Below are positions 9,145-45,631 of a stretch of 64,000 bases of DNA, piece after piece. How positions within the stretch are numbered: position 1 is the stretch's first letter; each line of letters opens with the position of its first letter. Both the position numbers and the translations under genes were made by a program. Source of the stretch: Candidatus Dormibacteria bacterium (GTDB taxonomy: Bacteria > Chloroflexota > Dormibacteria > Aeolococcales > Aeolococcaceae); NCBI GenBank assembly GCA_051002895.1, contig JBPCLW010000042.1:54293-118292 (forward strand), written 5' to 3'. The notes under the pieces were generated by a model. That model worked only from the letters and a program-made list of their open reading frames with translations, had not been told where the DNA came from and ran no database searches.

Positions 9145-10413
9145 TCACACCTTCATGGCTTTCATGACTCGGCGCATGAGGTCGCCGAGCGGCTGGTCAG
9201 CGTCATCGGCAAGAGACACTGCGTGGTGGGCAAGTCCCATCGGAGTGATGTCCTGGCTGCCGACGAGCAAGCCGGTGGTATCGAATACGCCCTGGACATC
9301 GTCGGGGCCGAGCACCTTGATCGTAGGTTGCCGGCTGAACGGCAGGCTTTCGGTCCAGTCGACGGCGGCAAGTTGCTCGCTCACCTCGGGAAGGGATGCG
9401 CCGCCGCCGGCCAGGTAGAGCGCCGGCGGCAGTTGCTCGCGGCCAGCCAGTTCCTCGAGGGTGAGCGCCACTCCCTGGGCGAGCACCTCCGCGGTCGGTT
9501 CGACGGTCCGGTGAGCGATCGCGTTCTGCTCCGCGGCGAGCCGCCCATCGGTGTGAGCAAGCTTGAATTTCTCCGCGTCTTCCAGGTTCATGTCGAGTTC
9601 GCTGGCGAGGCGTTTGGTAAAGGAGCGGCCACCCAGAGCAAACATCCGAGTCGCCTCGATGCCACCCCGACGTACGACCGCGACATCAGTGGTACCGCCG
9701 CCGATGTCAACGAAGATCCCGCCGAACTCGTACACATCTTCAGTGGCACACCCCCGCGCCATGGCGTACGGCTCGGCGACGGTGGCGACGAGGTCGAGGT
9801 CGAGCTCCTGAGCGATGGTCTGCAGCGCGCCGATGTGGGTCAGCGGCGCGAAGGTGTTGAAAACGGTGATCTCGATAACGTTACCGGAGAAGTCGAGGGG
9901 ATTGGTCACCGCGTAGCCGTCGATGTGAACGGCGGTGATCGTGGAGTGGACGAGCTTGACATTCACCTCGCTGACGCCCAGTTCGCTCGACATCTGTCGC
10001 ACCGCCTCCTTCATGGCACGGCGCTGAACCGCCTGGAGCGCGGTGGCAAGGTCGGCCTGGGTGATGCGCGCCTGGGGGTTGGGGCGAGTCATGGTCATGG
10101 TGGTGCTGAAGCCACGCACCTGCTCGCCGGCGATACCCATCACCGCCTGCCCAGGGATGGCACCACACATGTCCTCGGCTTCGGTGAGTGCCTTATCGCA
10201 GTTTTCAATGACTCCCTGAATGTCCGCCACCGCTCCGGCATGCATGTCGGAGAGCGACTGCCGTACCTTGCCAACACCAACGACGATGCCGTTCTGATCC
10301 TCACGCTTCACCACCAGCGCTTTGACGAACTCCGTACCGATGTCGATCACCGTGAAGTGACTCTGGTACTCATTGCGGCGGCGAAGTAGCGGGAACCTGC
10401 GGCGCTGCATCAT
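9145..10413 (-). CDS. FtsA/PilM-like actin-fold ATPase
   Basis: Actin/HSP70-fold phosphate motifs (VIDIGTEFVKALVV; FVDIGGGTTDVAVV; LAGGGASLP). The C-terminal DLMRRVMKAMKV looks like an amphipathic membrane-targeting helix. Start ATGATG overlaps the alaS stop. Confidence 0.7.
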   Translation of the reverse strand: MMQRRRFPLLRRRNEYQSHFTVIDIGTEFVKALVVKREDQNGIVVGVGKVRQSLSDMHAGAVADIQGVIENCDKALTEAEDMCGAIPGQAVMGIAGEQVRGFSTTMTMTRPNPQARITQADLATALQAVQRRAMKEAVRQMSSELGVSEVNVKLVHSTITAVHIDGYAVTNPLDFSGNVIEITVFNTFAPLTHIGALQTIAQELDLDLVATVAEPYAMARGCATEDVYEFGGIFVDIGGGTTDVAVVRRGGIEATRMFALGGRSFTKRLASELDMNLEDAEKFKLAHTDGRLAAEQNAIAHRTVEPTAEVLAQGVALTLEELAGREQLPPALYLAGGGASLPEVSEQLAAVDWTESLPFSRQPTIKVLGPDDVQGVFDTTGLLVGSQDITPMGLAHHAVSLADDADQPLGDLMRRVMKAMKV

Positions 10414-34790: not shown

Positions 34791-35666
34791 TCACCCGGTG
34801 GCCCGGAGCACCAAACCTCCCGGCAAGCTCCGCACTGCCCCGGCCAGTTCCAGAGCAGAGAGCCGGGCTGCAGTCTCGGCAGCATCGAGGCCGAGGAGAG
34901 CAGCCACCGTATCGGGGTGGATCGGATCCGCGCCAAGGCGGTCGAGGAGGGTGCGCAGTGGTGCCGAGAGTGCGGTGCGACCACCTTGGGCACGCGTTGC
35001 CGGGACAACGGTGAGACCGAGTTCAGGGATCGACTCGACGAGGTCTTCAACTCCGAGGTAGGGCCGGACACCATCGCGGATGAGGAGATTGCAGCCGTGG
35101 TGCTGCTCGGCGCGGATCGAGCCGGGGACGGCGAGCACCTCACGACCAAGATCGGCCGCCCAGCGAGCGGTGCTCAGAGCCCCGCTGCGTTCCGTGGCCT
35201 CGACGACAACGACGACCCTGGCCAGAGCTGCGATCAGGCGGTTCCGCCGGGGAAAGAGGAACCCCTCGGGAGTTCGCTGCGACGGATACTCGGTGACCAG
35301 CAGGCCACCGGCGCGGACGCGCTCGCGAAGCCCGCCATGCTCTCGCGGATAGTCGATGTCAAGGCCGCAGCCGAGCACGGCAACCGTGCCTCCCCCGGCG
35401 TCGAGTGCTCCCCCATGAGCCGCCGCATCAATGCCGCGCGCAAAGCCACTGATGACAGTGACGCCGAGCCCGATAAGTTCGGTAGCGATGCTGCGGGCGA
35501 TCTCCAAACCTCCCAGCGTTGCCCGTCGCGCGCCGACGACGGCAACGCCCAGGTCGCCGAGCCGCCCCGAGCCGTCCAGCCAGAGTCCCGCAGGAGGCTG
35601 CGTCAGGTGTTCCAGTTCGGGCGGCCATCCCTCGCCGTGGCGCGGTAACCAGCGACGGCCGGTCAC
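34791..35666 (-). CDS. dprA: DNA processing protein DprA (Rossmann-fold core, short form)
   Basis: VAVVGARRAT..., ISGFARGIDAAAHGGAL, AVLGCGLD..YP, VVVVEA..RSGALSTARWA. GTG start overlaps the stop of the comM 3' fragment. Confidence 0.85.
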   Translation of the reverse strand: MTGRRWLPRHGEGWPPELEHLTQPPAGLWLDGSGRLGDLGVAVVGARRATLGGLEIARSIATELIGLGVTVISGFARGIDAAAHGGALDAGGGTVAVLGCGLDIDYPREHGGLRERVRAGGLLVTEYPSQRTPEGFLFPRRNRLIAALARVVVVVEATERSGALSTARWAADLGREVLAVPGSIRAEQHHGCNLLIRDGVRPYLGVEDLVESIPELGLTVVPATRAQGGRTALSAPLRTLLDRLGADPIHPDTVAALLGLDAAETAARLSALELAGAVRSLPGGLVLRATG

Positions 35667-36307
35667 GTCGCCACCGCCGTCTCACCGCGGTGGCGCAGGG
35701 CTTCGGCGAGGTGGGTGTCGGCAACCGCATCGCACGCATGCAGGTCAGCGATGGTGCGCGCGACTCGAAGGACGCGAACGTACCCCCGGGCGGACAGACC
35801 CAGACGCTCGCCCGCCCGGCCCAGCATCCGGCGCGCGGCCGGCTGCAGAGCACAGGCGACGACGAGACGGTCGCCGGTGAGCAGCCGGTTGAGCCCGCCG
35901 CGCTCAGCCTGCCGTTGCCGAGCGCCGCTGACCCGAGCACGGATCGCCTCCGACGATTCCGGTGCGCGGGCTGCCAGGAGAGCATCCGCGGGGACTCGGG
36001 GAACCGCGACGTTGAGATCCATGCGATCGCGAAGCGGACCGGAGAGCCGACGGTGGTACGCATTGAGCTGACGGGCATCGCAGCGGCAGAGACGCGTGGG
36101 ATCCCCGAGATGACCGCAGGGACACGGATTGGCTGCGGCCACGAGGGTGAGTTCAGCGGGCATCGCCACCGACCCGCGCGCCCGGGCGATGACGATGCGG
36201 TGTTCCTCGAGCGGTTGGCGCAACGCCTCGAGGTGGGCGCGGGGAAATTCGCAGATCTCGTCGAGGAAGAGAACGCCGCCGTGCGAGGGCGTGCAACGTT
36301 GACGCAT
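35663..36307 (-). pseudogene. comM: comM/yifB 3' fragment (C-terminal ~205 aa of Mg-chelatase-like competence ATPase), preceded by 9 element-derived codons
   Basis: MRQRCTPSH|GGVLFLDEICEF...LRQPLEEHRIVIARA...LVAAANPCPCG...RFSGPLRDRMDL-like motifs. The ATG at 36307 lies in the element's terminal repeat. Confidence 0.85.
36284..36307. repeat. Left terminal inverted repeat / att arm of the element
   Basis: The plus strand GTGCAACGTTGACGCAT (36291..36307) matches the reverse complement of 44281..44299 (GTGTTACGCTTTGACGCAT) at 15 positions, with 2 mismatches and a 2-nt indel. Confidence 0.6.
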
Positions 36308-36358
36308 GAGACTATCGGCGGCCGATCCACAGCTCTGAGCGCGTCGTCCCCCGACCCC

Positions 36359-37267
36359 TCAGCAGCCAGGCCGCTGGAGTGGGTCCCCCTCGTGACGTGC
36401 GCCCCCATCGTATTCATTGAAGAATCCTGCGTTCATTCGCACGTCCTCCTCGATTCGCTGCACCACGTCCACCCCGAGGCCATACTCACGGAGCAGGTCG
36501 CAGAGATGTTCGCCATCGATCAACTCCACGGGTGGCGCTCCATCACGACTGGCCTCGTTTTGTGCATCACGAGTGAAGCTGCCCGTGGTGATCAGCAGGC
36601 CCTTCTCTCCGCGCCCCGCCATGGCGCCCCGGAAGTCACGGACCGAGGCGGAGGACACAGAGCCCTTGTAGCGCTTGCACTGGAAGTAGATGGGGAAGCT
36701 GACGAGCGATAACCGGTAGACGCCTACGCCGTCGATGCCTCCGTCGCCACTCTTGCCCGTCACGGTCACGTTGACAAATCCGGCTTCGCGAAGGATGCGT
36801 TGAGCAAGCCTCTCGAACCCGTCGGGCGGAAGTTCGAGCAGCCGACTGATCAGCGTGTCTTTCCAGGTTGCTTCCGCCTGTTCGTCAGCCTCTTCCTCGA
36901 CGGGGACTGCTCGCCGCTCCTTGCGACGCCGAAGGAGATCGGCACGCCATGCCTTGTTTTCGTTCTCCGTCGCCTTCTCGTCGAGGGCCAGGCCGTGATC
37001 GGTAATCGCCCATACCCCCCGGCTGCTGTTGACGAGGGCGCCAATTCCTTTGAGATGAGTCCGCGCCCAGTGGAGCCGATACTCGAGTTCTGACATCCGG
37101 CCGTTCCCATGCGGCACTGCCTGCAACTCCTCGGAGTAGGCCTCGTCTTCGAGGACCTTCTCAGTCATCTCTCTGACCGTGGCGGACCCCCCTAGGGCCT
37201 TGGTCGCCTGGAGGGCGGGCCACATGAAGACGTGATACGGAGGAATGGATAGCTTTGGATCGGGCAT
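36359..37267 (-). CDS. mrr: Mrr-family type IV restriction endonuclease (Mrr_N winged helix + Mrr_cat)
   Basis: N-terminal IPPYHVFMWPALQATKALGG...; catalytic core GKSGDGGIDGVGVYRL....IYFQCKRYKGSV...FRGAM...GLLITTGSFT. Confidence 0.8.
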   Translation of the reverse strand: MPDPKLSIPPYHVFMWPALQATKALGGSATVREMTEKVLEDEAYSEELQAVPHGNGRMSELEYRLHWARTHLKGIGALVNSSRGVWAITDHGLALDEKATENENKAWRADLLRRRKERRAVPVEEEADEQAEATWKDTLISRLLELPPDGFERLAQRILREAGFVNVTVTGKSGDGGIDGVGVYRLSLVSFPIYFQCKRYKGSVSSASVRDFRGAMAGRGEKGLLITTGSFTRDAQNEASRDGAPPVELIDGEHLCDLLREYGLGVDVVQRIEEDVRMNAGFFNEYDGGARHEGDPLQRPGC

Positions 37268-37454
37268 TGCCGCGTAATGCTAGCCCAGGGTTGGATACGG
37301 ATTGCTCAGGCTCAGACGGCCGAGATGCGATGGGGAGCAGCATCGGCTCGACGGCATCTCAGCACGCTAGGGCTCCCCAGGGCGCTTGCCGTCGGAGCCG
37401 CCGCTCCTAGAATCGATTTCCGACTCCGCCTACGTCGCTGGAGACGTGATAGCC

Positions 37455-37484
37455 GCTCAGACGGCAAATAAAGCCCGTCTGAGC
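37455..37484. terminator. Perfect 10-bp stem hairpin between terS and mrr (possible intrinsic terminator or insulator)
   Basis: GCTCAGACGG-caaataaagc-CCGTCTGAGC. No clear U-tract on the coding (minus) strand; CGTTTCC follows on the plus strand. Confidence 0.35.
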
Positions 37485-37548
37485 CGTTTCCGGGCCTCCT
37501 GTGGCGTACATCCAGCCCTGCGGCGATCTGAGATCGAAAGGCAGCGAG

Positions 37549-38006
37549 CTAGCCGCCGGAGAGCAGCCTGTCGAGCTCGTCCAGGGGTTCGTCCTTTCCG
37601 GTGACGATGCGACTGCGCGACGTCGGCGAAAGGCCCAGGGCGTCCGACAGGTGAGCGATCTCCCGTCCCGTGTCCCGGTACACCCGCCACGCCGGACGCG
37701 ATACCTCGCCGCCGCGGGCATTCGTGGTTGTGTACCCGCCGGTCGAGAGGTCCGTCCGGGCCTGCCGGTGATGCCAAACCATCCCCGCGAAGACTTCCAG
37801 GAGGGCTCCATCTGGCCCGCAGGAGACCCCATCCCCTCCAGTTCTGCGGCGACCTCGCAGAAGATGTGTCGCTGACCGGCGGGCATCCCACGCGGCGGTG
37901 TAGGGGTAGCCGTTCGCGGCTTCGGGGCGCGGCGGTTCACCCGCGACGGACGCGTCTCGCCGCGCAAGACTTTGAGTTCGACAGGGGCGGGGCGCCTTCC
38001 TCTCAT
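37549..38006 (-). pseudogene. Phage terminase small subunit (P27-family-like), interrupted by one frameshift
   Basis: The N-terminal frame reads MRGRRPAPVELKVLRGETRPSRVNRRAPKP...MPAGQRHIFCEVAAELEGMG. The family-like C-terminal part (...GPDGALLEVFAG...NARGGEVSRPAWRVYRDTGREIAHLSDALGLSPTSRSRIV) continues in another frame. The switch is near the G-run at 37822..37839. Confidence 0.6.
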
Positions 38007-38275
38007 ACGATCAGCCTAACCCACCCCTCGACGTTTTCGGGATCTCGGTACGGGCTCTTGGCTGCTGAGGCCGTCGGCCCGCACGGATTTTGCGTCCGCG
38101 GCATGCCCCCACCCCGCCCTGACGAAGCGGATCCGGGGTGAAGCTCCGAGGACCGTATGCACGCGGTTACGCGTCCGTCGTGAACATCTTTCGCGAGAGC
38201 ACAACGACACAGGCAAGAAGGAAAGACGCGGCTCCCGAAGCATCACCAACGGAAGCCGCACCTACTTGCTTACCT

Positions 38276-39157
38276 TTAGGCCGCTGGCCCGAGTCCAGTG
38301 ATGACGACGACGCCTGGGCTGTTGATGACCTGAACGTCGAAACGACTGACAACGCGCAGACCGATCGCGTCGAACTCCGCATAGCGTTCGGCGAGAACTA
38401 ACGCCTGCCCTTCCAAATCGACGCCCAGGTGAACCTGTGACGAATCGATGAGGGCAGCAGTTCCGAGCGGCATGTTCGGCGTCGGCACGACAGGACGGCT
38501 CAACAGCATGTCGGTGCTTTGCTGCGAAGGATTGGGAACTAGCAGCGAACGGCCGAGCGAGTCCTTCTGCTTCATCAGAACGCCGAGTGTCCGCGTGTTG
38601 ACCAACCACACGTCGGGGTCTGCGGCTGCGTCCAGCGAAGTCGTGAGGGCGTCGGTGAACACGTTGAGACCGGAACCGCTTGGATATACGGTCGTGTTGC
38701 TCGCGTCGATCGTTGTTCCGGCGAGCGGGAGAAGTCCAGTGATCCCCGCACCGGAGTTGCCTGCGAGCAACGCGGTGTCAACCACCTTCGTGAGTCGCTT
38801 GGTGATGATCTCGGTCGCGGCACTCAGCGGATCGGCTGCCGCGCTGCGGATAGTCTCGTTGGAGATCAGGACGATGATCTTCAGGCCCTTCAGTCCCCGC
38901 GGGAAAAGCACAACCTCGTTTGTGGTCGCAGCCACCGGGATGATCTCGTCGCCTGCCGCATGGAAGGCCGTGGTCGGGTTCACGGGAACGTCCAACGTGG
39001 GTAAGTGGAGTGGCCCGCTGATTGAGTGCGAGTGGATCGACTCCAGCGACAGAACGGCGGAGTCCCCCACAAGCGGCGAGTAGATGATCGCGTCCCATTC
39101 CTCGGCTGTGAGTTGATAGCCGAATCCGCTCGTCTGCGGTACCAAAGAGCCTGGCAT
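38276..39157 (-). CDS. HK97-fold phage major capsid protein (no delta domain)
   Basis: 293 aa; ...KRLTKVVDTALLAGNSGAGITGLLP...VWLVNTRTLGVLMKQKD.LGRSLL...RPVVPTPNMP.GTAALID... is typical of the Phage_capsid family. GAGG RBS lies 8 nt upstream of the ATG. Confidence 0.8.
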   Translation of the reverse strand: MPGSLVPQTSGFGYQLTAEEWDAIIYSPLVGDSAVLSLESIHSHSISGPLHLPTLDVPVNPTTAFHAAGDEIIPVAATTNEVVLFPRGLKGLKIIVLISNETIRSAAADPLSAATEIITKRLTKVVDTALLAGNSGAGITGLLPLAGTTIDASNTTVYPSGSGLNVFTDALTTSLDAAADPDVWLVNTRTLGVLMKQKDSLGRSLLVPNPSQQSTDMLLSRPVVPTPNMPLGTAALIDSSQVHLGVDLEGQALVLAERYAEFDAIGLRVVSRFDVQVINSPGVVVITGLGPAA

Positions 39158-39255
39158 GACAGTTACCTCGTGTCGTTAGACGTTGAGGGTCTGCCATCCC
39201 GGCTCACCCGATTGCGACGGCCATCCCGGCTTGTGTCGCGATCTCAGTGACAAGC

Positions 39256-39723
39256 CTACTCCCCCCGGCTCGGTTGTGCTAGGCCCCTGCGAGCGAGCGC
39301 ATCACCGAACGAGATACCTGGCCCGCCCGTCGGCACCACCTGCTGCCCTCCACCCGGCAACGGCCTCGGCATTTGAGGACGCTTCGTTCCGGGGCGCTTG
39401 CCGACGATCGCCTGAACCGCTGCAGTGACCTTGTCGGGGTCGACGTCGCCCGCCTCCGTGAGCATCGAAGCGACTTCCACGCCATCGAGCCAAACGTCGC
39501 CGGACTCCGACAGTGCGGCCGACGCAAGTCTCTCGATCTCGCGCCTGTGAAGCGCCTCGACGCGAGCCTCAGCAGCCGCTAGCCTCTGCTCACGCTCCGA
39601 CAGCTTCGCAACGATGTCTGAGTACCTTTTGCCCTCTCTCGGCTCCGGTGGGTCGCTGGTAGGCGGAGCGGGAACGTCTGCGGGCGGCGGAGTTGGTTGC
39701 GGCTCTGGTGTTGGGGTAGGCAT
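39256..39723 (-). CDS. Scaffolding-like protein (Pro-rich N-terminus, coiled coil)
   Basis: 155 aa directly upstream of the capsid gene. It has a coiled-coil segment (SEREQRLAAAEARVEALHRREIERLA) then ...DVWLDGVEVASMLTEAGDVDPDKVTAAVQAIV, resembling actinophage scaffold proteins. GGGAG RBS. Confidence 0.5.
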   Translation of the reverse strand: MPTPTPEPQPTPPPADVPAPPTSDPPEPREGKRYSDIVAKLSEREQRLAAAEARVEALHRREIERLASAALSESGDVWLDGVEVASMLTEAGDVDPDKVTAAVQAIVGKRPGTKRPQMPRPLPGGGQQVVPTGGPGISFGDALARRGLAQPSRGE

Positions 39724-39727
39724 CGAG

Positions 39728-40402
39728 CTATCTCCCTCTGCGCACGATGCGCGACTGACGTTGTTGTTGCGGTCTGCGCGGATGCAACTTGCCCGCTCGC
39801 ATCCCGCTCTCGATGGTCATTCTGATCTCGGCGTCCTCAAGTCCGATCTGCTCGGCCGTCGCAGTCAACGCAGTTCGGACGCCCTCGTACGTCAATAGAC
39901 CGCCCGCGACGATCTCGCCAAGTGCCAGTGCCGCGTTATTGAGCATCGAGTTGCGCTCGCCCTCACGCGCCGTAGCGAGCTTCTTCAACTCAGACATCAT
40001 CGCGGCATTCGCCCAGCGTCGATCCCTTCTGTCGGCCTCGGCTAGCGGGCCGAGTTTCGCTCGTCGTGATTCGACATCGTGAAGCCCTGACGACCCGCTG
40101 ATGGACCCGAGGACTATTCGGAGCAGCCGGTTCAGTTCCGGGAAACGATGATGTTGCTGTGGCTTCCGGGTGAAGTCGCTCACAGTCGTCTGAATCAACA
40201 CCCCAACCGGTGTATCGACCCAGCTACGGTCGTGAGGCAACTCTGGAGTGTCGGCAATCACATCGCCAGTCGTGATGTCGATTGCGAAGGCGTGAACCTC
40301 GACGCTCGCGCTTCGCGCATCGGGATCGGCCGCTAGTGTCTGCGCAAGGCGTTCGTTAGCCTCATTTGTGCGGCGTCTGCGAGCGAGTTCGTCGCTTCTC
40401 AT
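39728..40402 (-). CDS. Hypothetical replication-associated protein with primase-C-terminal-like helical module
   Basis: The C-terminus GERNSMLNNAALALGEIVAGGLLTYEGVRTALTATAEQIGLEDAEIRMTIESGMRAG resembles the helical module I recall on actinobacterial plasmid/phage primase-polymerase proteins. No catalytic prim-pol domain is visible. Confidence 0.45.
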   Translation of the reverse strand: MRSDELARRRRTNEANERLAQTLAADPDARSASVEVHAFAIDITTGDVIADTPELPHDRSWVDTPVGVLIQTTVSDFTRKPQQHHRFPELNRLLRIVLGSISGSSGLHDVESRRAKLGPLAEADRRDRRWANAAMMSELKKLATAREGERNSMLNNAALALGEIVAGGLLTYEGVRTALTATAEQIGLEDAEIRMTIESGMRAGKLHPRRPQQQRQSRIVRRGR

Positions 40403-40653
40403 CGTTGTTTCTCTGAATCACGACGTGGTGTGTCACCGCGGACCTCGGCGGCGCGTCTCCACGCCGAAGGAACGACGACGTGAAACATCTTCTCGGTGTG
40501 TGCCTCGCCCGTTGTGCGATCGACCTCCGTCACCTCGACCATCTGCTGGTCGAGCGCCAGGAGTCGTGTTGGCACAAATATGCGATCGCCGATACCCGCG
40601 TCATACGCGGGTGGATCGTTGCCTTCGTCCGGCCAATCTTTTCGCTGCGTCAT
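40399..40653 (-). CDS. Hypothetical protein (84 aa)
   Basis: ORF translationally coupled on both sides (4-nt overlaps). No family recognised. Confidence 0.45.
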   Translation of the reverse strand: MTQRKDWPDEGNDPPAYDAGIGDRIFVPTRLLALDQQMVEVTEVDRTTGEAHTEKMFHVVVPSAWRRAAEVRGDTPRRDSEKQR

Positions 40654-40847
40654 GTGACCTCCTGCTGTTGGTCGAGTTCTGCTGCTATCGCGTGCCGGAC
40701 CGCGTCCGGCTGTAGACGGACTAGTTGAGCGACAACACGCGCCAGGGCTTCGAGCTCGGCGCGCGTCGCGGCAGTCTCGGCAGCGAGCGCTGCGTGTTCG
40801 CGTGCATGGGCGACCAACGCTTCGGCAGTGTCCAGGTCAACCGTCAT
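40650..40847 (-). CDS. Hypothetical helical protein (65 aa)
   Basis: Ala/Glu/Leu-rich helical ORF, first gene after the iteron region, coupled to the next ORF. Confidence 0.45.
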   Translation of the reverse strand: MTVDLDTAEALVAHAREHAALAAETAATRAELEALARVVAQLVRLQPDAVRHAIAAELDQQQEVT

Positions 40848-40950
40848 CGGAAACCCACCCTTTGCGATTGGTGCGATCGCCTGTGGGGAGCCCTAGCGTT
40901 AGTCGCGGTTGACGATGCTGCTCCCCAAGCCGCGGGACGCGACCAGAACT

Positions 40951-40975
40951 GCAACCCCCTTTCAGTAGGGGTTGC
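40951..40975. other. Hairpin adjacent to the iteron array
   Basis: GCAACCCC-ctttcagta-GGGGTTGC, an 8-bp perfect stem. Confidence 0.5.
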
Positions 40976-40978
40976 ATT

Positions 40979-41117
40979 GGTTCCCGCTACCCCGGTTCCG
41001 AGTGGTTCCGCGATCGGTTCCGTACTTGAAATCGATAACGGTTCCCAGCCGTTCCTGGTTCCCGAGGAACCCCCAAGAGACGGGAGCGGTTCCGTATTCA
41101 GAATCGGTCTTGGTTCC
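40979..41117. repeat. Iteron-like array: 8 direct GGTTCC copies plus 1 inverted (GGAACC) in 139 bp, a candidate replication origin
   Basis: GGTTCC at 40979, 40994, 41004, 41016, 41040, 41057, 41088 and 41112. GGAACC at 41066 and a near-copy CGTTCC at 41050. The array ends 4 nt before the AAA ATPase stop codon (41122..41124), in a non-coding gap. Confidence 0.6.
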
Positions 41118-41121
41118 CGGC

Positions 41122-42102
41122 TCATTCGCGGGTCTTCCGATAGCGCAACGCGTCTAGGACGATCTGCTTGCGACGTCCCAGATCGTGACGGCGAAGCTCG
41201 GTCAATGCGGTCGTTCCGGTGGCGTCCAAGGGAACCCCGAGATCGTCGAGCGCCTTCACGCAATCGTGAGTCCCGGCTACGTATTGGTGTGGCGTCAGCA
41301 CGTGACGCAGCTCCGACTCTTCCTCGCGACGGAGCACAACCTTTGCCGGCACCCAATTCAATCGCGAGTGCGTGCGTGTCAGCGTGACCTCTGTACGGTC
41401 CTTCGACGTCTCCAAGCGCCACACCAGATCGACGTCATCCACCTTCGCGGACGAGCCGCGCTGACCCTTACTCGCATCCTTGCCAGCGTGATCCAGCCGC
41501 CAAAGGGCCACGCCCTCGGCTTTCAGACGCCATCCCGTGTGCTTGTAGAACGAGCGATACGTGTCGGCGACGTTCTCGTCACCCTCAACGACGCGTGCCA
41601 TCGTGTCGAGTACCACGAGTGACGCAGCGTGCCTTTGGACGAGTTCCAGCAGTTGCTTGCCGCCCGCATCGGTGTCGAGCGGCTTCAGCGACGTGAGCTG
41701 GTAGTAGTGGAGGCGGCTGAGGTCACTGTCTGGGCCGTAGCCGAGGTCAGTCAGCCGCTCGCGCAGATCGTCAGCGGTCATTTCGCGGTCGATGTACACG
41801 ACGTCGATCTGTTCCTGTGACTCAGTCGCTCCGAGGTAGGGCCGACCGTTCGCGCGCGCAGCAACGACGTCGAGGACGAGCAGCGACTTGCCTTCCTTCG
41901 GCTCCGAGTACATAGCGACCTGGCGGTGCTCGGGGACGATCTGGTCGATGACGTACTCGCCGGACTGAGTTTCCTCTTTCCAGAACTCGGGCCAATCGAT
42001 CGGTGTGGGCTCCCCCGTCTCGGACGAGACATCGGCACGAGCTCGTGGTTCGCTGACGGAAGGCGAGGGTTGCGCGGGCGTGCTTCTGATGCGCCCCATC
42101 AC
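41122..42102 (-). CDS. RepA-like RecA-fold ATPase (AAA_25-like) with C-terminal winged-helix-like tail
   Basis: MYSEPKEGKSLLVLD (deviant Walker A), LVVLDTMARV (Walker B), LWRLDHAGKD...GSSAK..DVDLVWRL, a typical AAA_25/RepA pattern. Confidence 0.65.
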   Translation of the reverse strand: MMGRIRSTPAQPSPSVSEPRARADVSSETGEPTPIDWPEFWKEETQSGEYVIDQIVPEHRQVAMYSEPKEGKSLLVLDVVAARANGRPYLGATESQEQIDVVYIDREMTADDLRERLTDLGYGPDSDLSRLHYYQLTSLKPLDTDAGGKQLLELVQRHAASLVVLDTMARVVEGDENVADTYRSFYKHTGWRLKAEGVALWRLDHAGKDASKGQRGSSAKVDDVDLVWRLETSKDRTEVTLTRTHSRLNWVPAKVVLRREEESELRHVLTPHQYVAGTHDCVKALDDLGVPLDATGTTALTELRRHDLGRRKQIVLDALRYRKTRE

Positions 42103-42156
42103 CGATCACCGGCTGAGGTCAGGACGATTTCGCTAAACTTCTCGTGCCGCGAATGA

Positions 42157-42178
42157 CCCGGGTGTCTCCGCACCCGGG
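42157..42178. terminator. Hairpin between the regulatory ORFs and the ATPase gene
   Basis: CCCGGGTG-tctccg-CACCCGGG, an 8-bp stem 4 nt downstream of the 59-aa ORF stop on the minus strand. No U-tract. Confidence 0.3.
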
Positions 42179-42181
42179 CCT

Positions 42182-42361
42182 TCACGCTACCTTCCTCCGT
42201 CGATGAGACGTAGGCGGCTCACCTACGGATCGAATTCGCTCGGCCAGTTGGTGTAGTGCAGCGGGAGCTTGGATCGTCAGAGGCAGCCCCTGCGAATCGC
42301 GCTCGGCTGCAACCATGCGACGGAGTTCGTCCGTATCGGGCACGCGGGCCGCGACGCTCAT
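42182..42361 (-). CDS. Hypothetical small protein (59 aa)
   Basis: ATG 42361 overlaps the XRE gene stop (ATGA). No family recognised. Candidate accessory regulator or directionality factor. Confidence 0.4.
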   Translation of the reverse strand: MSVAARVPDTDELRRMVAAERDSQGLPLTIQAPAALHQLAERIRSVGEPPTSHRRRKVA

Positions 42362-42576
42362 GAAGCCACCCCGGACGGCTCGCACAGAAGGTCAGCAACC
42401 TTGCAACCGATGCAGCGCGCCATGAGCACGATGGACGGACGGCTCGGCGTGCCGCGTCCTGTCTCCCAGCGATACACCGCCTGCACGCTGCGGTTGCACG
42501 CGACCGCTAGATGTTCACGCGCTAGATTTGCGGCCTCGCGGCGAGCGCGAAGTCTGGATGGCGAAAAATCGGACAC
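42358..42576 (-). CDS. XRE-family helix-turn-helix transcriptional regulator
   Basis: LRARREAANLAREHLAVACNRSVQAVYRWETGRGTPS...LMARCIGCKVADLL is an HTH_3 pattern. GTG start with GAGG 7 nt upstream. Confidence 0.7.
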   Translation of the reverse strand: MSDFSPSRLRARREAANLAREHLAVACNRSVQAVYRWETGRGTPSRPSIVLMARCIGCKVADLLCEPSGVAS

Positions 42577-42579
42577 GGC

Positions 42580-42597
42580 GACACCTCGCTAGGTGTC
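42580..42597. promoter_or_regulatory. Perfect palindrome over the XRE gene RBS (candidate operator or SD-sequestering hairpin)
   Basis: GACACCT-cgct-AGGTGTC. On the minus strand the AGGTGTC half contains the GAGG Shine-Dalgarno. Confidence 0.4.
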
Positions 42598-42700
42598 TGC
42601 CTGTCACGGATCTCGACTTCAGGATCGTCTAAGTCTCAGCGAGATGCTGGAGCGAGCGGCGATCTGGACTGTGCAGACGTTGATCGAATTAGCTACGTGC

Positions 42701-42730
42701 AGCATAGCGCGATCCGAGTCGGCTCGTCAA
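42701..42730 (-). promoter_or_regulatory. Candidate sigma-70-type promoter for the xre-rep-capsid gene string
   Basis: Minus strand TTGACG (42730..42725), an 18-nt spacer, then TATGCT (42706..42701), in the relatively AT-rich int-xre spacer. Confidence 0.35.
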
Positions 42731-42782
42731 ACGCGCCTGCCTTACTGCGGACTTTCCGTTCAAGGCCGCGCTAGCTCAGAAA

Positions 42783-44282
42783 CTAGACGCGCCACATGAC
42801 GCGCACGCGCGCACGGTCGTATGTGTTGCGCCCTCTCGTGGCCGGTGCGACACGCACCTCTGCGATGAGGTCGCGGATGGTGGCGCGCCGTTGTGGGTCG
42901 TCGAACTTGTCCCATGCCGACCGCAAGGGACGGGGGGTGCAGTGCAACGACTCGCGACCGCGGAGTTCGTCGTAGTGCCGCTGTGCGCGTCCCAGCCGGT
43001 CGTTGATGCCGACACGCATGGCGGACCATTCAGACCGCGAGAACTCGCCCGCGCCGAACGCGGTGGCCAGCCCGTTGAGTTCCTGCTCCAACGCAGCGAC
43101 AGCATGCAGCGCCTCGCTCTGAGCCGTGTCGGTATCGGCGTCGAGGATGCGGTCCAGTGCGCCGTCGTCGACGGCGATCAGCACGCGCTCGATGACGTCA
43201 GACTCAAGTTCGTCAGCGCCGACGCGAATGCCGCCGCAACCGTGGAATCCTGGCCCCTTCGCGCAGATGTAGCAGGGACGGGCAGCGCGGACGATGTTGC
43301 CTTCGCTGTCGCGCCAGGCCGCTGCCGGACGTGACACCAACCGAGCGTCGCAGATGCCGCAACGCGCGACGCCGCCGCCGAGAAGGTGTGTCCTACCCGC
43401 TGACCACGCGGCACGTCTCGCGGGGTTGGAGAGCAGCCGACGGAGAGCATCGCTGTCAGCGGGCCTGATGATCGTCGCCCACTCGACGGTCGTCGAGGTG
43501 ATCGGTGCAAGTCGGCTCGATCGGGTGTGAGCCTCGCGACGCCCATGCTCGCGACGCCCGCTGATACGCGCCGACAACAGCAAGTTGCGGAGCACCGTTG
43601 GAGTCCATGGCGCGCCCTTGACGGTGGCGACGCCGCGCTTCTCGAAATCTCGGCACAACGAGCGGATGGCCTCGCCATTGAGCACGCGTCTCGCCGCCTC
43701 GCGCACTACCTCGGCCTCGGCGTCGCGGAGCGTCTTGCGATCGTCGTCATAGCCGTAGGGACGGGTGCCGCCGCCGCTCAATGTGCCTGCCTCCGCGATT
43801 TCTTTCATCTTGCGGCGGACGCGGTCGCTCTTGTGCTCGCTCTCTCCGCGCGCTACCGCACCAACGATCCGGGCGATCATCCTGCCGGTGGACTTGGTGA
43901 GGTCAAGCACCCCAGCGCGAGCCGTCTCAATAGTGACCCCGGCCGCTTCAACGATGGTGATGAATCGTTCCAGCTCAATCGGGGAACGGTGCAGCCGGTC
44001 AGGATGCCAGGCGACCAGTAGACCAACGTCGCCGGCCGTGATGTCCCCGAGCAGCCGTTCGTACTCCGGTCGGGTCTTGCCGCTGAACGCGCTGATGTCG
44101 TTGTCGGAGTACACCCGGATGCGCTCTTGTGGGTAGCCCCGCCGTCCACAAAGAGGGCGGCAATCCTCCTCTTGCCGAGCTACGCCGAGTCCAGCGCCCT
44201 CGCGGTCATCGGAGATCCGGACGTAGATCGCGGCGACGCCGCGCGCCGCCTCCGGCTCGGCTTCGGCGGGTGGGGTCATCAT
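42783..44282 (-). CDS. Large serine recombinase (integrase)
   Basis: AAIYVRISDDREG...ARQEEDC (catalytic Ser region), resolvase domain, recombinase domain and a Cys-rich zinc ribbon (CGICDARL...CYICAKGPGFHGC), then a coiled-coil C-terminus. ATGATG start at 44282..44277. Confidence 0.9.
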   Translation of the reverse strand: MMTPPAEAEPEAARGVAAIYVRISDDREGAGLGVARQEEDCRPLCGRRGYPQERIRVYSDNDISAFSGKTRPEYERLLGDITAGDVGLLVAWHPDRLHRSPIELERFITIVEAAGVTIETARAGVLDLTKSTGRMIARIVGAVARGESEHKSDRVRRKMKEIAEAGTLSGGGTRPYGYDDDRKTLRDAEAEVVREAARRVLNGEAIRSLCRDFEKRGVATVKGAPWTPTVLRNLLLSARISGRREHGRREAHTRSSRLAPITSTTVEWATIIRPADSDALRRLLSNPARRAAWSAGRTHLLGGGVARCGICDARLVSRPAAAWRDSEGNIVRAARPCYICAKGPGFHGCGGIRVGADELESDVIERVLIAVDDGALDRILDADTDTAQSEALHAVAALEQELNGLATAFGAGEFSRSEWSAMRVGINDRLGRAQRHYDELRGRESLHCTPRPLRSAWDKFDDPQRRATIRDLIAEVRVAPATRGRNTYDRARVRVMWRV

Positions 44283-44303
44283 GCGTCAAAGCGTAACACT
44301 CGG
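44281..44303. repeat. Right terminal inverted repeat / att arm of the element
   Basis: ATGCGTCAAAGCGTAACAC (44281..44299) is an inverted copy of 36291..36307. It contains the comM 5'-fragment stop codon (44286..44288) and part of the integrase start. Confidence 0.6.
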
Positions 44304-45185
44304 ATGGGCCAGGGAGATCTCGCCGGGCTGAGCCAGGCCACTGCCACCGCCGACCAACCCGGCGCGGGAAACCGAGTGATGGGGAGCCCGGAACGGTGGC
44401 CTCAAGCTCGTGGCCGAGCGGTCGGCCAGGCGTCCCTTCAGGGAGTACAGGGCGGCGACCTCAAGGGCGTCCTCGGGCTCGAGATCCGGAAGGAGCGAGG
44501 CAAAGGCCCGAGCCAGCATCGTCTTGCCTGCGCCCGGTGGCCCGAGTAGGAGGACATTGTGTCCACCTGCGGCGGCGATCTCAAGCGCGCGTTTCGCCGT
44601 TGCCTGACCGCGGATCTCGGCAATGTCGGGCTCGGGCGCGCCCGTGGTGGCCTTCATCGGCGTCGCCATCGGGAGTTCGACGCGTCCCTCGAGATGCGCG
44701 ACGGCGCCGGTGAGATGCTCGACACCAACTACATGGAGCCTGTCGACCAGCGCGGCCTCGGCCCCGTTCTCAGCGGCGACAAGGAGCTGCCGCACCCCAT
44801 GAGCCGCCAGACAACGTGCCATCGCCAGGACACCGGCAACGGGCCGCACCCTGCCATCGAGGGCCAGTTCGCCGATACAGGCAATGCCGTCCAGCCGGAG
44901 CTGTTCGCGTTCTGTGCACAGAATTGCCAAGGCCATGCTGAGATCGAATCCAGAGCCTTCCTTGGGCAATTCCGCCGGCGCCAGATTGACGGTCACCCGC
45001 TGCGCGGGGAGCCCGAACCCAGCGTTGCGCAGAGCTGCCCGCACCCGCTCCCGGGCCTCAAAGATGGCGCGATCAGCGAGGCCCACCACGGTAAAGCTGG
45101 GGAGCCCGTTGGCGACGTCAGCCTCCACCAGCACGGGGACACCGCTGATGCCGAGCACAGCGCAACTCATAGCAGTCGCAGTCAT
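44286..45185 (-). pseudogene. comM: comM/yifB 5' fragment (N-terminal ~294 aa) plus 5 element-derived codons
   Basis: VPVLVEADVANGLPSFTVVGLAD..., GFDL.MALAIL, RGQATAKRALEIAAAGGHNVLLLGPPGAGKTMLA, ...PFRAPHHSVSRAGLVGGGS..PGEISLAH|PSVTL*. Confidence 0.88.
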
Positions 45186-45262: not shown

Positions 45263-45631
45263 TCACCCACCGACAGCGCTCACGATGTGGTCAATCCGCA
45301 ACGGATCCAAATCTGCGTCGAGCAGAACGGCTACGACGTCGATCCGGCAACGCCTCCCCCGCCGTCCGGTCGCAGCCATGTAGGCGTGGAGCAGTGCCCG
45401 CAGCTTCTCCTGCTTGCGCCAGTCCACCGCCTCCTGGGGCGGACCGAAAGCAGCACTGCGACGCGCCTTGACCTCGACGACGACGAGGACGTCGCCATCC
45501 TCGCAGACGATGTCGACCTGACCCAGCCGGCAGCGCCAATCGAGATCGAGGATGCGCAGGCCACGCTCACGGAGATACGCCACCGCGGCGGCCTCACCAG
45601 CGGGACCCGCGCGCTCCCTGCTGGAGCGCAC
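45263..45631 (-). CDS. yraN: YraN family endonuclease (UPF0102)
   Basis: GEAAAVAYLRERGLRILDLDWRCRLGQVDIVCEDGDVLVVVEVKARR...FGPPQEAVDWRKQ...RIDVVAV. Confidence 0.8.
   Translation of the reverse strand: MRSSRERAGPAGEAAAVAYLRERGLRILDLDWRCRLGQVDIVCEDGDVLVVVEVKARRSAAFGPPQEAVDWRKQEKLRALLHAYMAATGRRGRRCRIDVVAVLLDADLDPLRIDHIVSAVGG

What the first reader, a model, noticed from the sequence alone, without database searches (positions are those of the whole stretch)
35663..45185. comM (competence/Mg-chelatase-like ATPase) is cleanly split by an 8-kb insertion next to dprA
ORF 44286..45185 carries the N-terminal part of a ComM/YifB protein (Lon-like domain, Walker A GPPGAGKT) and ends ...PGEISLAH followed by 5 foreign codons (PSVTL*). 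ORF 35663..36307 starts with 9 foreign codons (MRQRCTPSH) and then continues GGVLFLDEICEF... through the rest of the family. Joining at H|GG gives ...GEISLAHGGVLFLDE..., the contiguous motif expected in this family, for a total of about 499 aa. No residues are lost or duplicated, which points to site-specific integration and to precise excision restoring comM. comM sits directly upstream of, and is coupled to, dprA, so the insertion lies in a transformation/recombination operon. This resembles known 'phage regulatory switch' cases such as comK, sigK and spsM.
Basis: partly seen in the sequence, partly recalled or inferred. Interest (0 to 1): 0.8.

Follow-up and report, generated by a model that had tools for sequence, protein, structure and literature searches.

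The report
Small mobile element splitting comM
An 8-kb mobile element carrying its own serine integrase, a capsid gene and a restriction enzyme sits exactly inside the DNA-repair/competence gene comM of an uncultured soil-type bacterium; the split is real and clean, but this is the commonest known landing site for this kind of integrase, so it is a good example rather than a new phenomenon.

Summary
comM is split at His294/Gly295, between Walker A and Walker B, by an 8,023-bp element (window 36284..44304 plus one CA). A natural empty site exists. A 98%-identical strain (L081) has intact comM-dprA, and its two alignments to the window overlap by only 2 nt, the CA core.

A large serine recombinase (LSR) gene starts 22 nt from the core. 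The rebuilt attP has perfect 11-nt inverted repeats 15 nt either side of CA. About 22 of 80 LSR relatives from Dormibacterota, Actinomycetota (including Bifidobacterium breve) and Chloroflexota sit at the same comM codon, in either orientation.

The cargo is an HTH regulator, a RepA-like AAA_25 ATPase with a GGAACC iteron cluster, a scaffold-like protein, an HK97 capsid protein, a frameshifted P27 small terminase and an Mrr nuclease. No portal, large terminase, tail or lysis gene was recognised among the ORFs I screened. It therefore looks like a phage satellite.

LSR targeting of Mg-chelatase/comM is already documented: 12.4% of site-specific LSRs (Durrant 2022) and phage WO. The "regulatory switch" reading is untested.

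Verdict: a real feature and a new member of a known kind, of modest interest.

The parts
45263..45631 (-). yraN (UPF0102), the gene upstream of comM in the host operon
   Evidence: Pfam PF02021, E=2.9e-26. Same gene order in the empty-site contig L081.
44305..45185 (-). comM 5' part, residues 1-294: Lon-like ChlI domain and Walker A GPPGAGKT. The ORF runs on to 44286 through 5 element-derived codons (PSVTL*).
   Evidence: Matches L081 1-3612 at 97.9% identity with no gaps.
44305..44306 (-). attL crossover dinucleotide CA (first two bases of the His294 codon)
   Evidence: The two L081 alignments overlap by exactly these 2 nt. Junction sequences.
44279..44304 (-). Integrase-proximal arm of attP (P'): TCCGAGTGTTACGCT followed by the 11-nt repeat TTGACGCATGA. 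This repeat contains the comM' stop codon (TGA) and the integrase ATG.
   Evidence: Homologous arms with the same 22-nt core-to-ATG spacing occur in L003 and L004.
42783..44282 (-). Large serine recombinase (integrase), 499 aa
   Evidence: Pfam Resolvase 2.5e-25, Recombinase 4.8e-10, Zn_ribbon_recom 1.1e-3. PHROG 95 integrase 3.3e-78. Y20, R22, S24 and D26 are invariant in a 35-sequence alignment.
42787..42804 (-). Terminator-like hairpin overlapping the integrase stop codon
   Evidence: Consensus scan only; weak evidence.
42701..42730 (-). Sigma-70-like promoter match upstream of the HTH gene
   Evidence: TTGACG-18-TATGCT, 9 of 12 matches. Consensus match only.
42358..42576 (-). XRE-type HTH regulator, 72 aa
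   Evidence: Pfam HTH_31 1.4e-9 and HTH_3 1.8e-7. PHROG repressor / CII-like families.
42182..42385 (-). orf67, conserved small ORF of unknown function; one candidate for a directionality factor
   Evidence: No family hit. 47-54% identical counterparts in the related elements L165 and L166.
41122..42102 (-). RepA-like AAA_25 ATPase (replication helicase-like), 326 aa
   Evidence: Pfam AAA_25 9.7e-24. Matches the ATPase part of PHROG primase/helicase families. 34% identical to a gene on the circular IMG/VR contig L155.
40979..41117 (-). Iteron cluster, candidate replication origin: 9-10 copies of GGAACC/GGTTCC in about 140 nt
   Evidence: The whole 64-kb window holds only 46 copies. Also found as direct repeat D1.
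40650..40847 (-). orf65, conserved small ORF
   Evidence: 41-46% identical counterparts in L165 and L166. No family hit.
40399..40653 (-). orf84, small ORF of unknown function
   Evidence: Called as a gene in L082 and L164. No family hit.
39728..40402 (-). orf224, a composite protein. Its N part resembles a small ORF of related elements; its C part resembles the linker of their Prim-Pol/AAA_25 protein.
   Evidence: tblastn against L165 and L166. Weak match to the N-terminus of a PHROG helicase family.
39256..39723 (-). Scaffold-like protein, 155 aa
   Evidence: PHROG 4708 head scaffolding protein, 7.2e-7. 50% identical counterpart directly upstream of the capsid gene in L165, L166 and L167.
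38276..39157 (-). HK97-fold major capsid protein, 293 aa, without a delta domain
   Evidence: TIGR01554 94.9 bits against a cut-off of 27.5, profile positions 113-384 of 385. Pfam Phage_capsid 2.4e-17. PHROG 10.
37549..38006 (-). P27-family small terminase, read in two frames with a -1 shift near 37825-37835
   Evidence: N part matches PHROG 83. C part matches Pfam Terminase_4 4.2e-10 and TIGR01558. Frames shown. The same sequence is present in L082 and L164.
37472..37485 (-). Terminator-like hairpin after the terminase gene
   Evidence: consensus scan only.
36359..37267 (-). Mrr-type (type IV, modification-dependent) restriction endonuclease, 302 aa; defence cargo
   Evidence: Pfam Mrr_cat 9.2e-31 and Mrr_N 1e-18. 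PADLOC mREase_IV 3e-23 and PDC-S02 7e-27.
36284..36309 (-). Integrase-distal arm of attP (P): the 11-nt repeat TCATGCGTCAA followed by CGTTGCACGCCCTCG. It supplies the ATG of the comM 3' ORF.
36282..36283 (-). attR crossover dinucleotide CA
35663..36281 (-). comM 3' part: third base of the His294 codon (36281), then residues 295-499 (Walker B VLFLDE, rest of the AAA+ domain, Mg_chelatase_C). The ORF starts at 36307, and its first 8 codons (MRQRCTPS) are element-derived.
   Evidence: Matches L081 3611-5332 at 97.6% identity with no gaps.
34791..35666 (-). dprA; its start overlaps the comM stop by 4 nt
   Evidence: Pfam DNA_processg_A 4.8e-64. dprA follows the comM 3' fragment in L002, L003, L004, L011, L029, L042 and L044.

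Best explanation
An 8,023-bp integrative mobile element has inserted into comM by attP x attB recombination, catalysed by its own large serine recombinase (LSR). The crossover is the CA dinucleotide of the His294 codon. It separates Walker A (in the N fragment) from Walker B (in the C fragment), so ComM helicase is inactivated. No host base is lost, so excision would restore the gene exactly.

Shown:
- The boundaries, the 2-bp crossover and a natural empty site.
- An intact LSR gene starting 22 nt from the core.
- A 54-bp attP with perfect 11-nt inverted repeats.
- The same target codon used by LSR relatives across three phyla.

Inferred:
- The element is a phage-satellite-like island. It has its own regulator, RepA-like ATPase, iteron origin, scaffold-like protein, HK97 capsid protein and small terminase, plus an Mrr defence gene. 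No portal, large terminase, tail or lysis gene was recognised among the ORFs I screened. It would rely on a helper phage for transfer.
- In the integrated state the integrase has no room for its own promoter: the comM' stop lies 3 nt before its ATG. It would therefore be transcribed, and possibly translationally coupled, from the host yraN-comM operon.
- Excision needs an unidentified directionality factor.
- comM is most likely used because it is a dispensable gene with an extremely conserved DNA stretch. Loss of ComM may also protect the element from being cured by transformation.
For: Split, joint and gapless alignment to intact ComM.

Empty site in a roughly 98%-identical strain, with a 2-nt alignment overlap.

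Occupied site identical in independent assemblies.

LSR domains and invariant catalytic residues.

attP inverted repeat.

Family evidence:
- 15-16 genome loci have the comM N fragment, ending at residue 294-309, directly upstream of an LSR relative.
- 6 loci have the C fragment, starting at residue 278-293, adjacent to the LSR and divergent from it.
- Two database proteins are ComM-N::LSR fused gene calls.

Cargo annotation. Iterons.

A conserved small-element lineage shares the capsid (67%), scaffold-like protein (50%), orf65, orf67 and LSR (47%). Other comM-bounded elements of about 8 kb carry a small terminase, Prim-Pol or a capsid gene.

Literature:
- Mg chelatase is targeted by 12.4% of site-specific LSRs, and competence genes are enriched among targets (PMC10083194).
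- Phage WO sr1WO integrates into the Mg chelatase gene (PMC9203015).
- comM is a hotspot for mobile elements (PMC12378983).
Against: - No excised circle or attP junction was found in IMG/VR or JGI metagenome contigs. Mobility today is inferred only from the polymorphic site.
- The small terminase is frameshifted in every copy seen.
- Compared with its relatives L165 and L166, the element lacks a Prim-Pol domain, and orf224 looks rearranged. The element may be partly defective.
- No helper phage is identified.
- No directionality factor is identified.
- Satellite status rests on gene content only; SatelliteFinder was not run, and the absence of portal, large terminase, tail and lysis genes rests on Pfam, PHROG and NCBIfam hits for the ORFs I chose to screen, not on a complete six-frame survey of the 8 kb.
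- Promoter and terminator calls are consensus matches no more frequent than in shuffled sequence.
Confidence: 0.8

Rival explanations
1. Regulatory switch (active lysogeny). The element excises reversibly under a particular condition, such as competence or DNA damage. This restores ComM when it is needed. The element persists as an episome through its RepA/iteron module and then re-integrates, as prophages do in comK, sigK and spsM.
For: - Precise in-frame restoration is possible.
- The LSR and att sites are intact.
- The integrase lies directly behind comM', so host operon transcription could feed it.
- The element has a replication module.
- The split comM shows no decay: dN/dS is 0.12 against the intact allele, like neighbouring genes, with no stops or frameshifts.
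Against: - There is no evidence of excision.
- A low dN/dS is equally expected from a recent insertion, and the counts are small (24 synonymous, 8 non-synonymous).
- The closest relatives sit in the opposite orientation (L003, L004), so coupling to the comM promoter is not conserved.
- ComM is an accessory helicase, not a regulator.
- The same site is used by very different cargoes, from 6-kb islands to elements larger than 10 kb. That fits a safe-harbour or sabotage logic better than a host-adapted switch.
Confidence: 0.1
2. Immobile remnant. The element integrated by the LSR mechanism but is now a decaying cryptic island that can no longer replicate, package or excise.
For: - The small terminase frameshift is fixed in three datasets.
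- The Prim-Pol domain is missing and orf224 is composite, relative to L165 and L166.
- No attP was detected.
Against: - The LSR keeps all family-invariant residues.
- The attP arms keep a perfect 11-nt inverted repeat.
- The site is polymorphic between strains that are about 98% identical.
- Element copies from four datasets are 99.97-100% identical.
- All other ORFs are open.
Confidence: 0.2
3. Integrative plasmid-like or mobilisable element rather than a phage satellite. The RepA/iteron module is its core, and the capsid and terminase genes are acquired fragments.
For: - AAA_25 RepA-like gene plus iterons.
- A related circular 8.1-kb contig, L155, has an LSR and AAA_25.
- The B. breve comM element L011 has no virion genes.
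Against: - The capsid and scaffold-like pair is conserved at 50-67% identity and in the same order in L165, L166 and L167.
- No relaxase or conjugation gene was recognised among the ORFs I screened.
Confidence: 0.12
4. Assembly chimera: the split is an artefact of metagenome binning or assembly.
For: The window comes from a metagenome-type contig. The attR junction DNA is seen only in the window itself.
Against: - The attL junction is identical in two independent Logan assemblies.
- The junction-derived C-fragment protein is recorded from NCBI and Logan.
- The same architecture recurs in more than 20 unrelated genomes.
Confidence: 0.01

Closest known systems
Mg-chelatase/comM-targeting large serine recombinase elements catalogued by Durrant et al. 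2022 (PMC10083194)
   Same: [quoted passage not shown] Diverse LSR clusters converge on this one gene, which is reported as the target of 12.4% of predicted site-specific LSRs, and competence genes are enriched among targets.
   Different: That survey used isolate genomes and was aimed at tool discovery. I could not check whether the His294 CA site, this LSR clade, or Dormibacterota hosts are in it.
Wolbachia prophage WO, sr1WO group (PMC9203015)
   Same: A serine recombinase integrates the element into the host magnesium chelatase gene, leaving gene halves on both flanks. Its att sites were rebuilt in the same way, from an uninterrupted allele.
   Different: WO is a full-size tailed prophage in an alphaproteobacterial endosymbiont. 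Sequence relatedness and the exact site were not compared.
phiRv1 / phiRv2 'small prophage-like elements' of Mycobacterium tuberculosis, classed as PICI-type satellites by SatelliteFinder (PMC10085698)
   Same: About 9-10 kb. From my own knowledge, phiRv1 has a serine integrase at one end, a primase/replication gene, and capsid and terminase-type genes without a full virion set.
   Different: From my own knowledge (Bibb & Hatfull 2002), phiRv1 targets the REP13E12 repeat, not comM. The present element has no prohead protease.
Phage regulatory switches: Listeria phi10403S/A118 in comK, B. subtilis skin in sigK, SPbeta in spsM
   Same: An element bearing a serine recombinase splits a host gene, and precise excision rebuilds it. 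This much was tested in silico.
   Different: In those systems, conditional excision and the need for the restored gene are shown experimentally. Nothing of that kind is available here, and the element is not a complete phage.
AbaR / Tn7-like islands and other mobile elements in comM of Gram-negative bacteria (PMC11441513, PMC12378983, PMC10293859)
   Same: The same host gene is inactivated. The proposed benefit is that reduced transformation prevents curing of the island.
   Different: Those insert by Tn7-type transposition with a target-site duplication, not by a 2-bp serine-recombinase crossover. The hosts are Proteobacteria.

Membership tests
ComM/YifB (the interrupted host gene) | ChlI/Lon-like N domain, AAA+ Mg_chelatase domain with Walker A and B, and Mg_chelatase_C, contiguous with orthologues | tested here: met
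   Pfam on both fragments. The joined protein matches ComM 8rxd at E=3.4e-112 with no gap at the joint. A 13-sequence alignment shows none either. It is 98% identical to the intact allele P0242.
Large serine recombinase (serine integrase) element | Resolvase catalytic domain with a serine nucleophile, plus recombinase domain and zinc-ribbon domain | tested here: met
   PF00239 2.5e-25 and PF07508 4.8e-10. PF13408 is weak: 19.7 bits, below the 25.3 cut-off. S24, R22, Y20 and four Cys are invariant in the family alignment.
Large serine recombinase (serine integrase) element | 2-bp crossover with no target duplication or long direct repeat | tested here: met
   The empty-site alignments overlap by exactly 2 nt, CA. 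attL and attR share only CA.
Large serine recombinase (serine integrase) element | attP of about 50 bp with imperfect inverted-repeat arms, next to the integrase gene | tested here: met
   TCATGCGTCAA-15 nt-CA-15 nt-TTGACGCATGA. The ATG lies 22 nt from the core.
Large serine recombinase (serine integrase) element | Catalytic activity, and dependence of excision on a directionality factor | not testable with these tools
   No directionality factor is recognisable. The candidates are orf67, orf65, orf84 and the HTH protein.
comM-targeting LSR elements (Durrant 2022; phage WO sr1WO) | An LSR gene at the edge of an insert that splits a Mg-chelatase/ComM homologue, recurring across divergent LSRs | tested here: met
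   About 22 of 80 genome loci holding LSR relatives (35-69% identity) sit at the same codon. Fused ComM-N::LSR gene calls are P0146 and P0172.
Phage satellite (PICI-like / phiRv1-like) | Small size, an integrase, a regulator and a replication module with an origin | tested here: met
   8,023 bp with an LSR, an XRE-type HTH, AAA_25 and a GGAACC iteron cluster.
Phage satellite (PICI-like / phiRv1-like) | Packaging or capsid-hijack genes present, but no complete virion or lysis gene set | tested here: met
   HK97 capsid protein, scaffold-like protein and P27 small terminase are present. No portal, protease, large terminase, tail or lysis family appeared in the Pfam, PHROG or NCBIfam scans of the ORFs I screened; the screen covered the main minus-strand ORFs and a few others, not every ORF in the insert. 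Caveat: the terminase is frameshifted.
Phage satellite (PICI-like / phiRv1-like) | Induction, packaging and transfer by a helper phage | not testable with these tools
   No helper was identified. The capsid protein has only 6 relatives in 5.8 billion proteins, and those whose context I examined are on small elements.
Phage satellite (PICI-like / phiRv1-like) | Classification by SatelliteFinder models | not tested
Phage regulatory switch (active lysogeny) | Excision precisely restores an interrupted host gene | tested here: met
   Met in silico only.
Phage regulatory switch (active lysogeny) | Excision is conditional, and the restored gene is required under that condition | not testable with these tools
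   No attP or attB junction was found in public contigs. No expression data are available.

The most novel reading that the evidence does not exclude
The element is a genuine reversible switch. Integration places the integrase, without a promoter of its own, directly behind and translationally coupled to the truncated comM. The host's yraN-comM-dprA promoter then keeps integrase present, and a small element-encoded directionality factor under the XRE regulator decides when comM is rebuilt. The excised circle survives on its RepA/iteron origin and re-integrates. This would be the first such switch on a recombination or transformation gene in the uncultured phylum Dormibacterota, and it would be carried by a capsid-encoding satellite rather than a phage.
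Probability: 0.08. Interest if true: 0.6.

Novelty: new member of a known kind. Interest (0 to 1): 0.3.

Why it matters
This is a clean natural example of serine-integrase site specificity. It offers a 2-bp core, a 54-bp attP, an empty and an occupied allele in strains about 98% identical, and relatives that use the same dinucleotide in both orientations.

It extends the known comM/Mg-chelatase integration hotspot to Dormibacterota. It also extends it to a lineage of 8-9-kb elements that carry their own capsid and scaffold-like genes. These are plausible phage satellites in phyla where none have been studied.

The att sites and the integrase could be tested directly as a genome-engineering tool. 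The finding does not open a new biological question, because both the target gene and the mechanism are already documented.

Tried and rejected
- Exact search for the rebuilt attP in IMG/VR and in JGI metagenome contigs found nothing.
- Exact search for the rebuilt attB in metagenome contigs found nothing. The real empty site differs by one synonymous base (ATA for ATC) and lies in a Logan assembly. It was found through the 90% protein cluster of the N fragment instead.
- A back-translated search for the capsid protein in IMG/VR gave only one weak hit.
- An exact lookup of the Mrr protein found nothing on record.
- tblastn of the cargo proteins against the 80 genome loci gave almost nothing. 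Cargo is therefore not conserved across comM-targeting elements; only the LSR and the site are.
- tRNA and Rfam scans of the whole window found nothing, so a tRNA/tmRNA-type att site is excluded.
- I considered whether in-frame ComM-N::LSR fusions are functional. I rejected this: only 2 of about 16 junctions are fused. In 9 of 16 an in-frame TAA/TAG sits within the conserved attP arm, and most integrase ATGs are out of frame.
- I considered whether the ATG that restarts the comM C fragment is an adaptation to keep dprA translated. It is simply the mirror image of the integrase start inside the 11-nt inverted repeat.
- The dN/dS comparison of split and intact comM cannot separate a recent insertion from continued selection.

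Full report
**1. The observation**

Both ORFs are on the minus strand at the stated coordinates. ORF 44286..45185 (299 aa) ends ...GSGLAQPGEISLAH, followed by PSVTL*. ORF 35663..36307 (214 aa) begins MRQRCTPSH, followed by GGVLFLDEICEF....

Pfam places the first fragment on ChlI plus Mg_chelatase profile positions 1-109 of 207. It places the second on positions 104-205 plus Mg_chelatase_C. Walker A (GPPGAGKT) is in the first piece and Walker B (VLFLDE) in the second.

The conceptual join of 499 aa aligns without a gap across the joint in two comparisons:
- The solved Legionella ComM, 8rxd (E=3.4e-112).
- Twelve intact orthologues, in which H294, G296, V297, L298, F299, D301 and E302 are invariant.

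dprA (34791..35666) overlaps the comM stop by 4 nt.

The best-named relatives of ComM are all from Candidatus Dormibacterota, at 63-65% identity. The closest integrase and DprA relatives are also from Dormibacterota MAGs. The host is therefore probably a member of that phylum.

**2. A natural empty site fixes the boundaries**

The 90%-identity protein cluster of the N fragment contains a 490-aa member, P0242. It is an intact ComM, 482/490 identical to the joined protein, with no gaps and with ...PGEISLAHGGVLFLDE... at the joint.

Its contig is L081, a Logan assembly of SRR22405861. It carries rimM-trmD-rplS-yraN-comM-dprA with nothing in between.

By blastn, L081 1-3612 equals window 47916-44305 (97.9% identity, no gaps). 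L081 3611-5332 equals window 36283-34562 (97.6% identity, no gaps). The two alignments overlap by exactly two bases, CA, the first two bases of the His294 codon. The insert is therefore 36284..44304 plus one copy of CA, 8,023 bp in all.

The occupied state is not an assembly artefact:
- L082 (SRR33880236) is 100% identical to window 48639-37585.
- L083 (SRR24198228) is 100% identical to window 44763-42383.
- L164 (JGI 3300009400) is 99.965% identical to window 43470-37772.
- The C-fragment protein, with its junction-derived N-terminus, is on record from both NCBI and Logan.

**3. Integrase and attachment sites**

The gene at the comM-proximal edge (42783..44282) encodes a 499-aa large serine recombinase (LSR). 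It has Resolvase, Recombinase and weak zinc-ribbon domains, and matches PHROG 95 integrase at 3.3e-78. It retains the family-invariant Y20, R22, S24 and D26 and four cysteines.

attL and attR share only CA. Rebuilding attP gives TCATGCGTCAA-15 nt-CA-15 nt-TTGACGCATGA. That is a perfect 11-nt inverted repeat placed symmetrically around the core, 54 bp in all.

The right-hand repeat contains the stop codon of truncated comM (TGA) and, 3 nt later, the integrase ATG. The left-hand repeat supplies the ATG of the C-fragment ORF. That ATG is simply the mirror image of the integrase start.

From established knowledge of serine integrases, a 2-bp crossover and a quasi-palindromic attP of about 50 bp next to int are the defining geometry. 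The central dinucleotide alone sets orientation.

**4. The site is a family property**

A pattern scan of one genome per species found 436 LSR relatives, and I retrieved 80. tblastn with the joined ComM, together with motif inspection, shows two arrangements.

*Same orientation as the window.* In 15-16 loci the comM N fragment ends at residue 294-309 immediately upstream of the LSR. These loci come from Acidimicrobiia, Pseudonocardiaceae, Herbidospora, Planomonospora, a Chloroflexota MAG and a Bifidobacterium breve MAG (L011).

*Opposite orientation.* In 6 loci the comM C fragment, starting at residue 278-293, lies adjacent to the LSR and divergent from it. This group includes the closest Dormibacterota relatives, L003 (69% identity) and L004 (56%).

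In L003 and L004 the integrase-proximal arm is homologous to the window's and keeps the 22-nt core-to-ATG spacing. It is joined to the other half of comM. The same CA is therefore used with the attP core reversed (TG when read in the integrase direction).

Where both ends are present, the elements measure about 6.0 kb (L011), 8.4 kb (L008) and 8.6 kb (L023). Several others exceed 10 kb.

Two database proteins (P0146 and P0172, 772 and 776 aa) and the B. breve ORF L011 2115..4496 (793 aa) are in-frame ComM-N::LSR read-throughs. Most junctions instead carry an in-frame TAA/TAG within the conserved arm, so the fusions look incidental.

dprA follows the comM C fragment in every locus that extends far enough.

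**5. What the element carries**

All recognisable genes are co-oriented with comM. In order from the integrase end:
- LSR.
- XRE-type HTH regulator (42358..42576).
- orf67.
- RepA-like AAA_25 ATPase (41122..42102).
- A 274-nt spacer.
- orf65, orf84 and orf224.
- Scaffold-like protein (39256..39723).
- HK97 major capsid protein (38276..39157): TIGR01554, 94.9 bits against a cut-off of 27.5.
- P27-family small terminase (37549..38006).
- Mrr-type type IV restriction enzyme (36359..37267).

The spacer holds 9-10 GGAACC/GGTTCC hexamers within 140 nt. The whole 64-kb window holds only 46. This is a plausible iteron origin.

No portal, protease, large terminase, tail or lysis family was hit among the ORFs I scanned. 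I screened the main minus-strand ORFs and a few others, not every ORF in the insert.

The terminase is read in two frames with a -1 shift near a GGGG run. The shift is present in three datasets. It is therefore real and fixed: either a pseudogene or a programmed frameshift.

The capsid protein has only six relatives in the 5.8-billion-protein set. The 67%-identical ones lie on small elements with the same order: LSR, orf67, Prim-Pol/AAA_25, orf65, small ORFs, scaffold-like protein, capsid, then variable reverse-strand cargo (L165, L166, L167).

L165's integrase is 47% identical to the window's. It splits a different P-loop gene, not comM.

Other comM-bounded elements of about 8 kb carry HTH_17, Prim-Pol and Terminase_4 (L008) or a capsid gene (L023). 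The B. breve island carries neither.

The most economical reading is a lineage of satellite-like elements. They encode their own capsid shell but depend on a helper for everything else. LSR specificity is swapped between lineages.

Relative to L165 and L166, the window's element lacks Prim-Pol and has a composite orf224. It may therefore be partly defective.

**6. How it most likely works**

*Shown.* LSR-type integration at CA splits ComM between Walker A and Walker B. This should abolish the helicase while leaving both halves intact.

*Inferred.*
- In the integrated state the integrase has no space for a promoter. It is probably transcribed from the host operon, possibly by termination-reinitiation after comM'.
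- A hairpin overlaps the integrase stop, and a sigma-70-like match precedes the HTH gene (weak evidence). The rest of the island may therefore be a separate unit.
- No terminator-like site lies between Mrr and the comM C fragment, so dprA may be read through from the island.
- Excision would need a directionality factor. None is recognisable.

**7. Is it a regulatory switch?**

The sequence allows it, but nothing supports it specifically:
- No attP or attB junction was found in public contigs.
- dN/dS of split against intact comM is 0.12 (24 synonymous, 8 non-synonymous changes). Neighbouring genes give 0.13-0.36. This fits a recent insertion as well as continued selection.
- The opposite orientation in the nearest relatives argues against a conserved coupling to the comM promoter.

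The literature already offers simpler explanations:
- Mg chelatase/ComM homologues are the target of 12.4% of predicted site-specific LSRs, and competence genes are enriched among LSR targets (PMC10083194).
- Phage WO sr1WO integrates into the Wolbachia Mg chelatase gene (PMC9203015).
- comM is disrupted by many kinds of mobile element, possibly to avoid curing by transformation (PMC12378983; PMC11441513).

**8. Verdict**

The finding is real and precisely resolved. It is a new member of a known kind: an LSR element at the comM hotspot. The modestly new aspects are the Dormibacterota host and the capsid-encoding cargo of about 8 kb. Interest 0.3.

Noticed in passing
L100 3-98; L132 2-166; L142 7-129; L126 5711-5025; L120 10081-11268: comM has a second LSR hotspot. 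In several IMG/VR loci the comM fragment ends or starts at about residue 80-83 (the GFDL motif of the Lon-like domain), right next to an LSR relative of 34-39% identity, instead of at His294.
   Followed up: partly
L003 ~4767-4804; L004 ~9904-10001; also L002, L029, L042, L044, L152: The closest integrase relatives use the same CA of the His codon but are inserted in the opposite orientation. The integrase is divergent from the comM 3' fragment, so the attP core dinucleotide is flipped. The 22-nt core-to-ATG spacing is kept.
   Followed up: partly
L011 2115-4496 (Bifidobacterium breve MAG); L018 junction; proteins P0146, P0172: The comM N fragment reads in frame into the integrase with no stop codon. 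This gives predicted chimeric proteins of 772-793 aa. The B. breve island is only about 6 kb and carries Excalibur-domain and SHOCT-domain proteins rather than virion genes.
   Followed up: partly
window 37825-37835 (within 37549..38006, minus strand): The P27-family small terminase needs a -1 frame change at a GGGGATGGGGTC stretch. The identical sequence is present in a Logan assembly and a JGI assembly, so it is not an assembly error.
   Followed up: partly
window 37331-37379 and 40884-40927: A hairpin-forming module of about 50 nt (TGGGGAGCAGCATCG...ACGCTAGGGCTCCCCA) occurs twice inside the element in inverted orientation. One copy is in the terminase-Mrr spacer and the other in the iteron/origin spacer. 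Its function is unknown.
   Followed up: partly
L165 3621-4169 and 12837-13397: A related element has a capsid protein 67% identical and an integrase 47% identical to the window's. It splits a different P-loop ATPase gene (AAA_31/CpaE-like) right at its GGTGRSTLA Walker A region instead of comM. The insert is about 8.7 kb.
   Followed up: partly
L155 (IMG/VR contig, 8,256 bp): This contig has a 127-nt terminal direct repeat, so it is probably circular. It carries an LSR relative (32% identity) and an AAA_25 protein 34% identical to the window's. It may be a free or excised form of a related small element.
   Followed up: partly
L051 7821-9275; L071 7395-8954; L054; L066 (Nonomuraea / Streptosporangium): An apparently uninterrupted comM lies 0.7-1 kb upstream of a more distant LSR relative (35-38% identity), with no dprA detected nearby. 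The target site of these elements was not worked out.
   Followed up: no
L086, L095, L111, L113, L135, L139, L146, L149, L158, L160 (IMG/VR): Integrase relatives sit at the extreme end of predicted prophages of 23-60 kb. The same LSR family therefore serves full-size temperate phages as well as the small islands.
   Followed up: no
window 1-64000: There is no tRNA or tmRNA gene, and no Rfam family reaches its gathering score, anywhere in the 64-kb window.
   Followed up: yes
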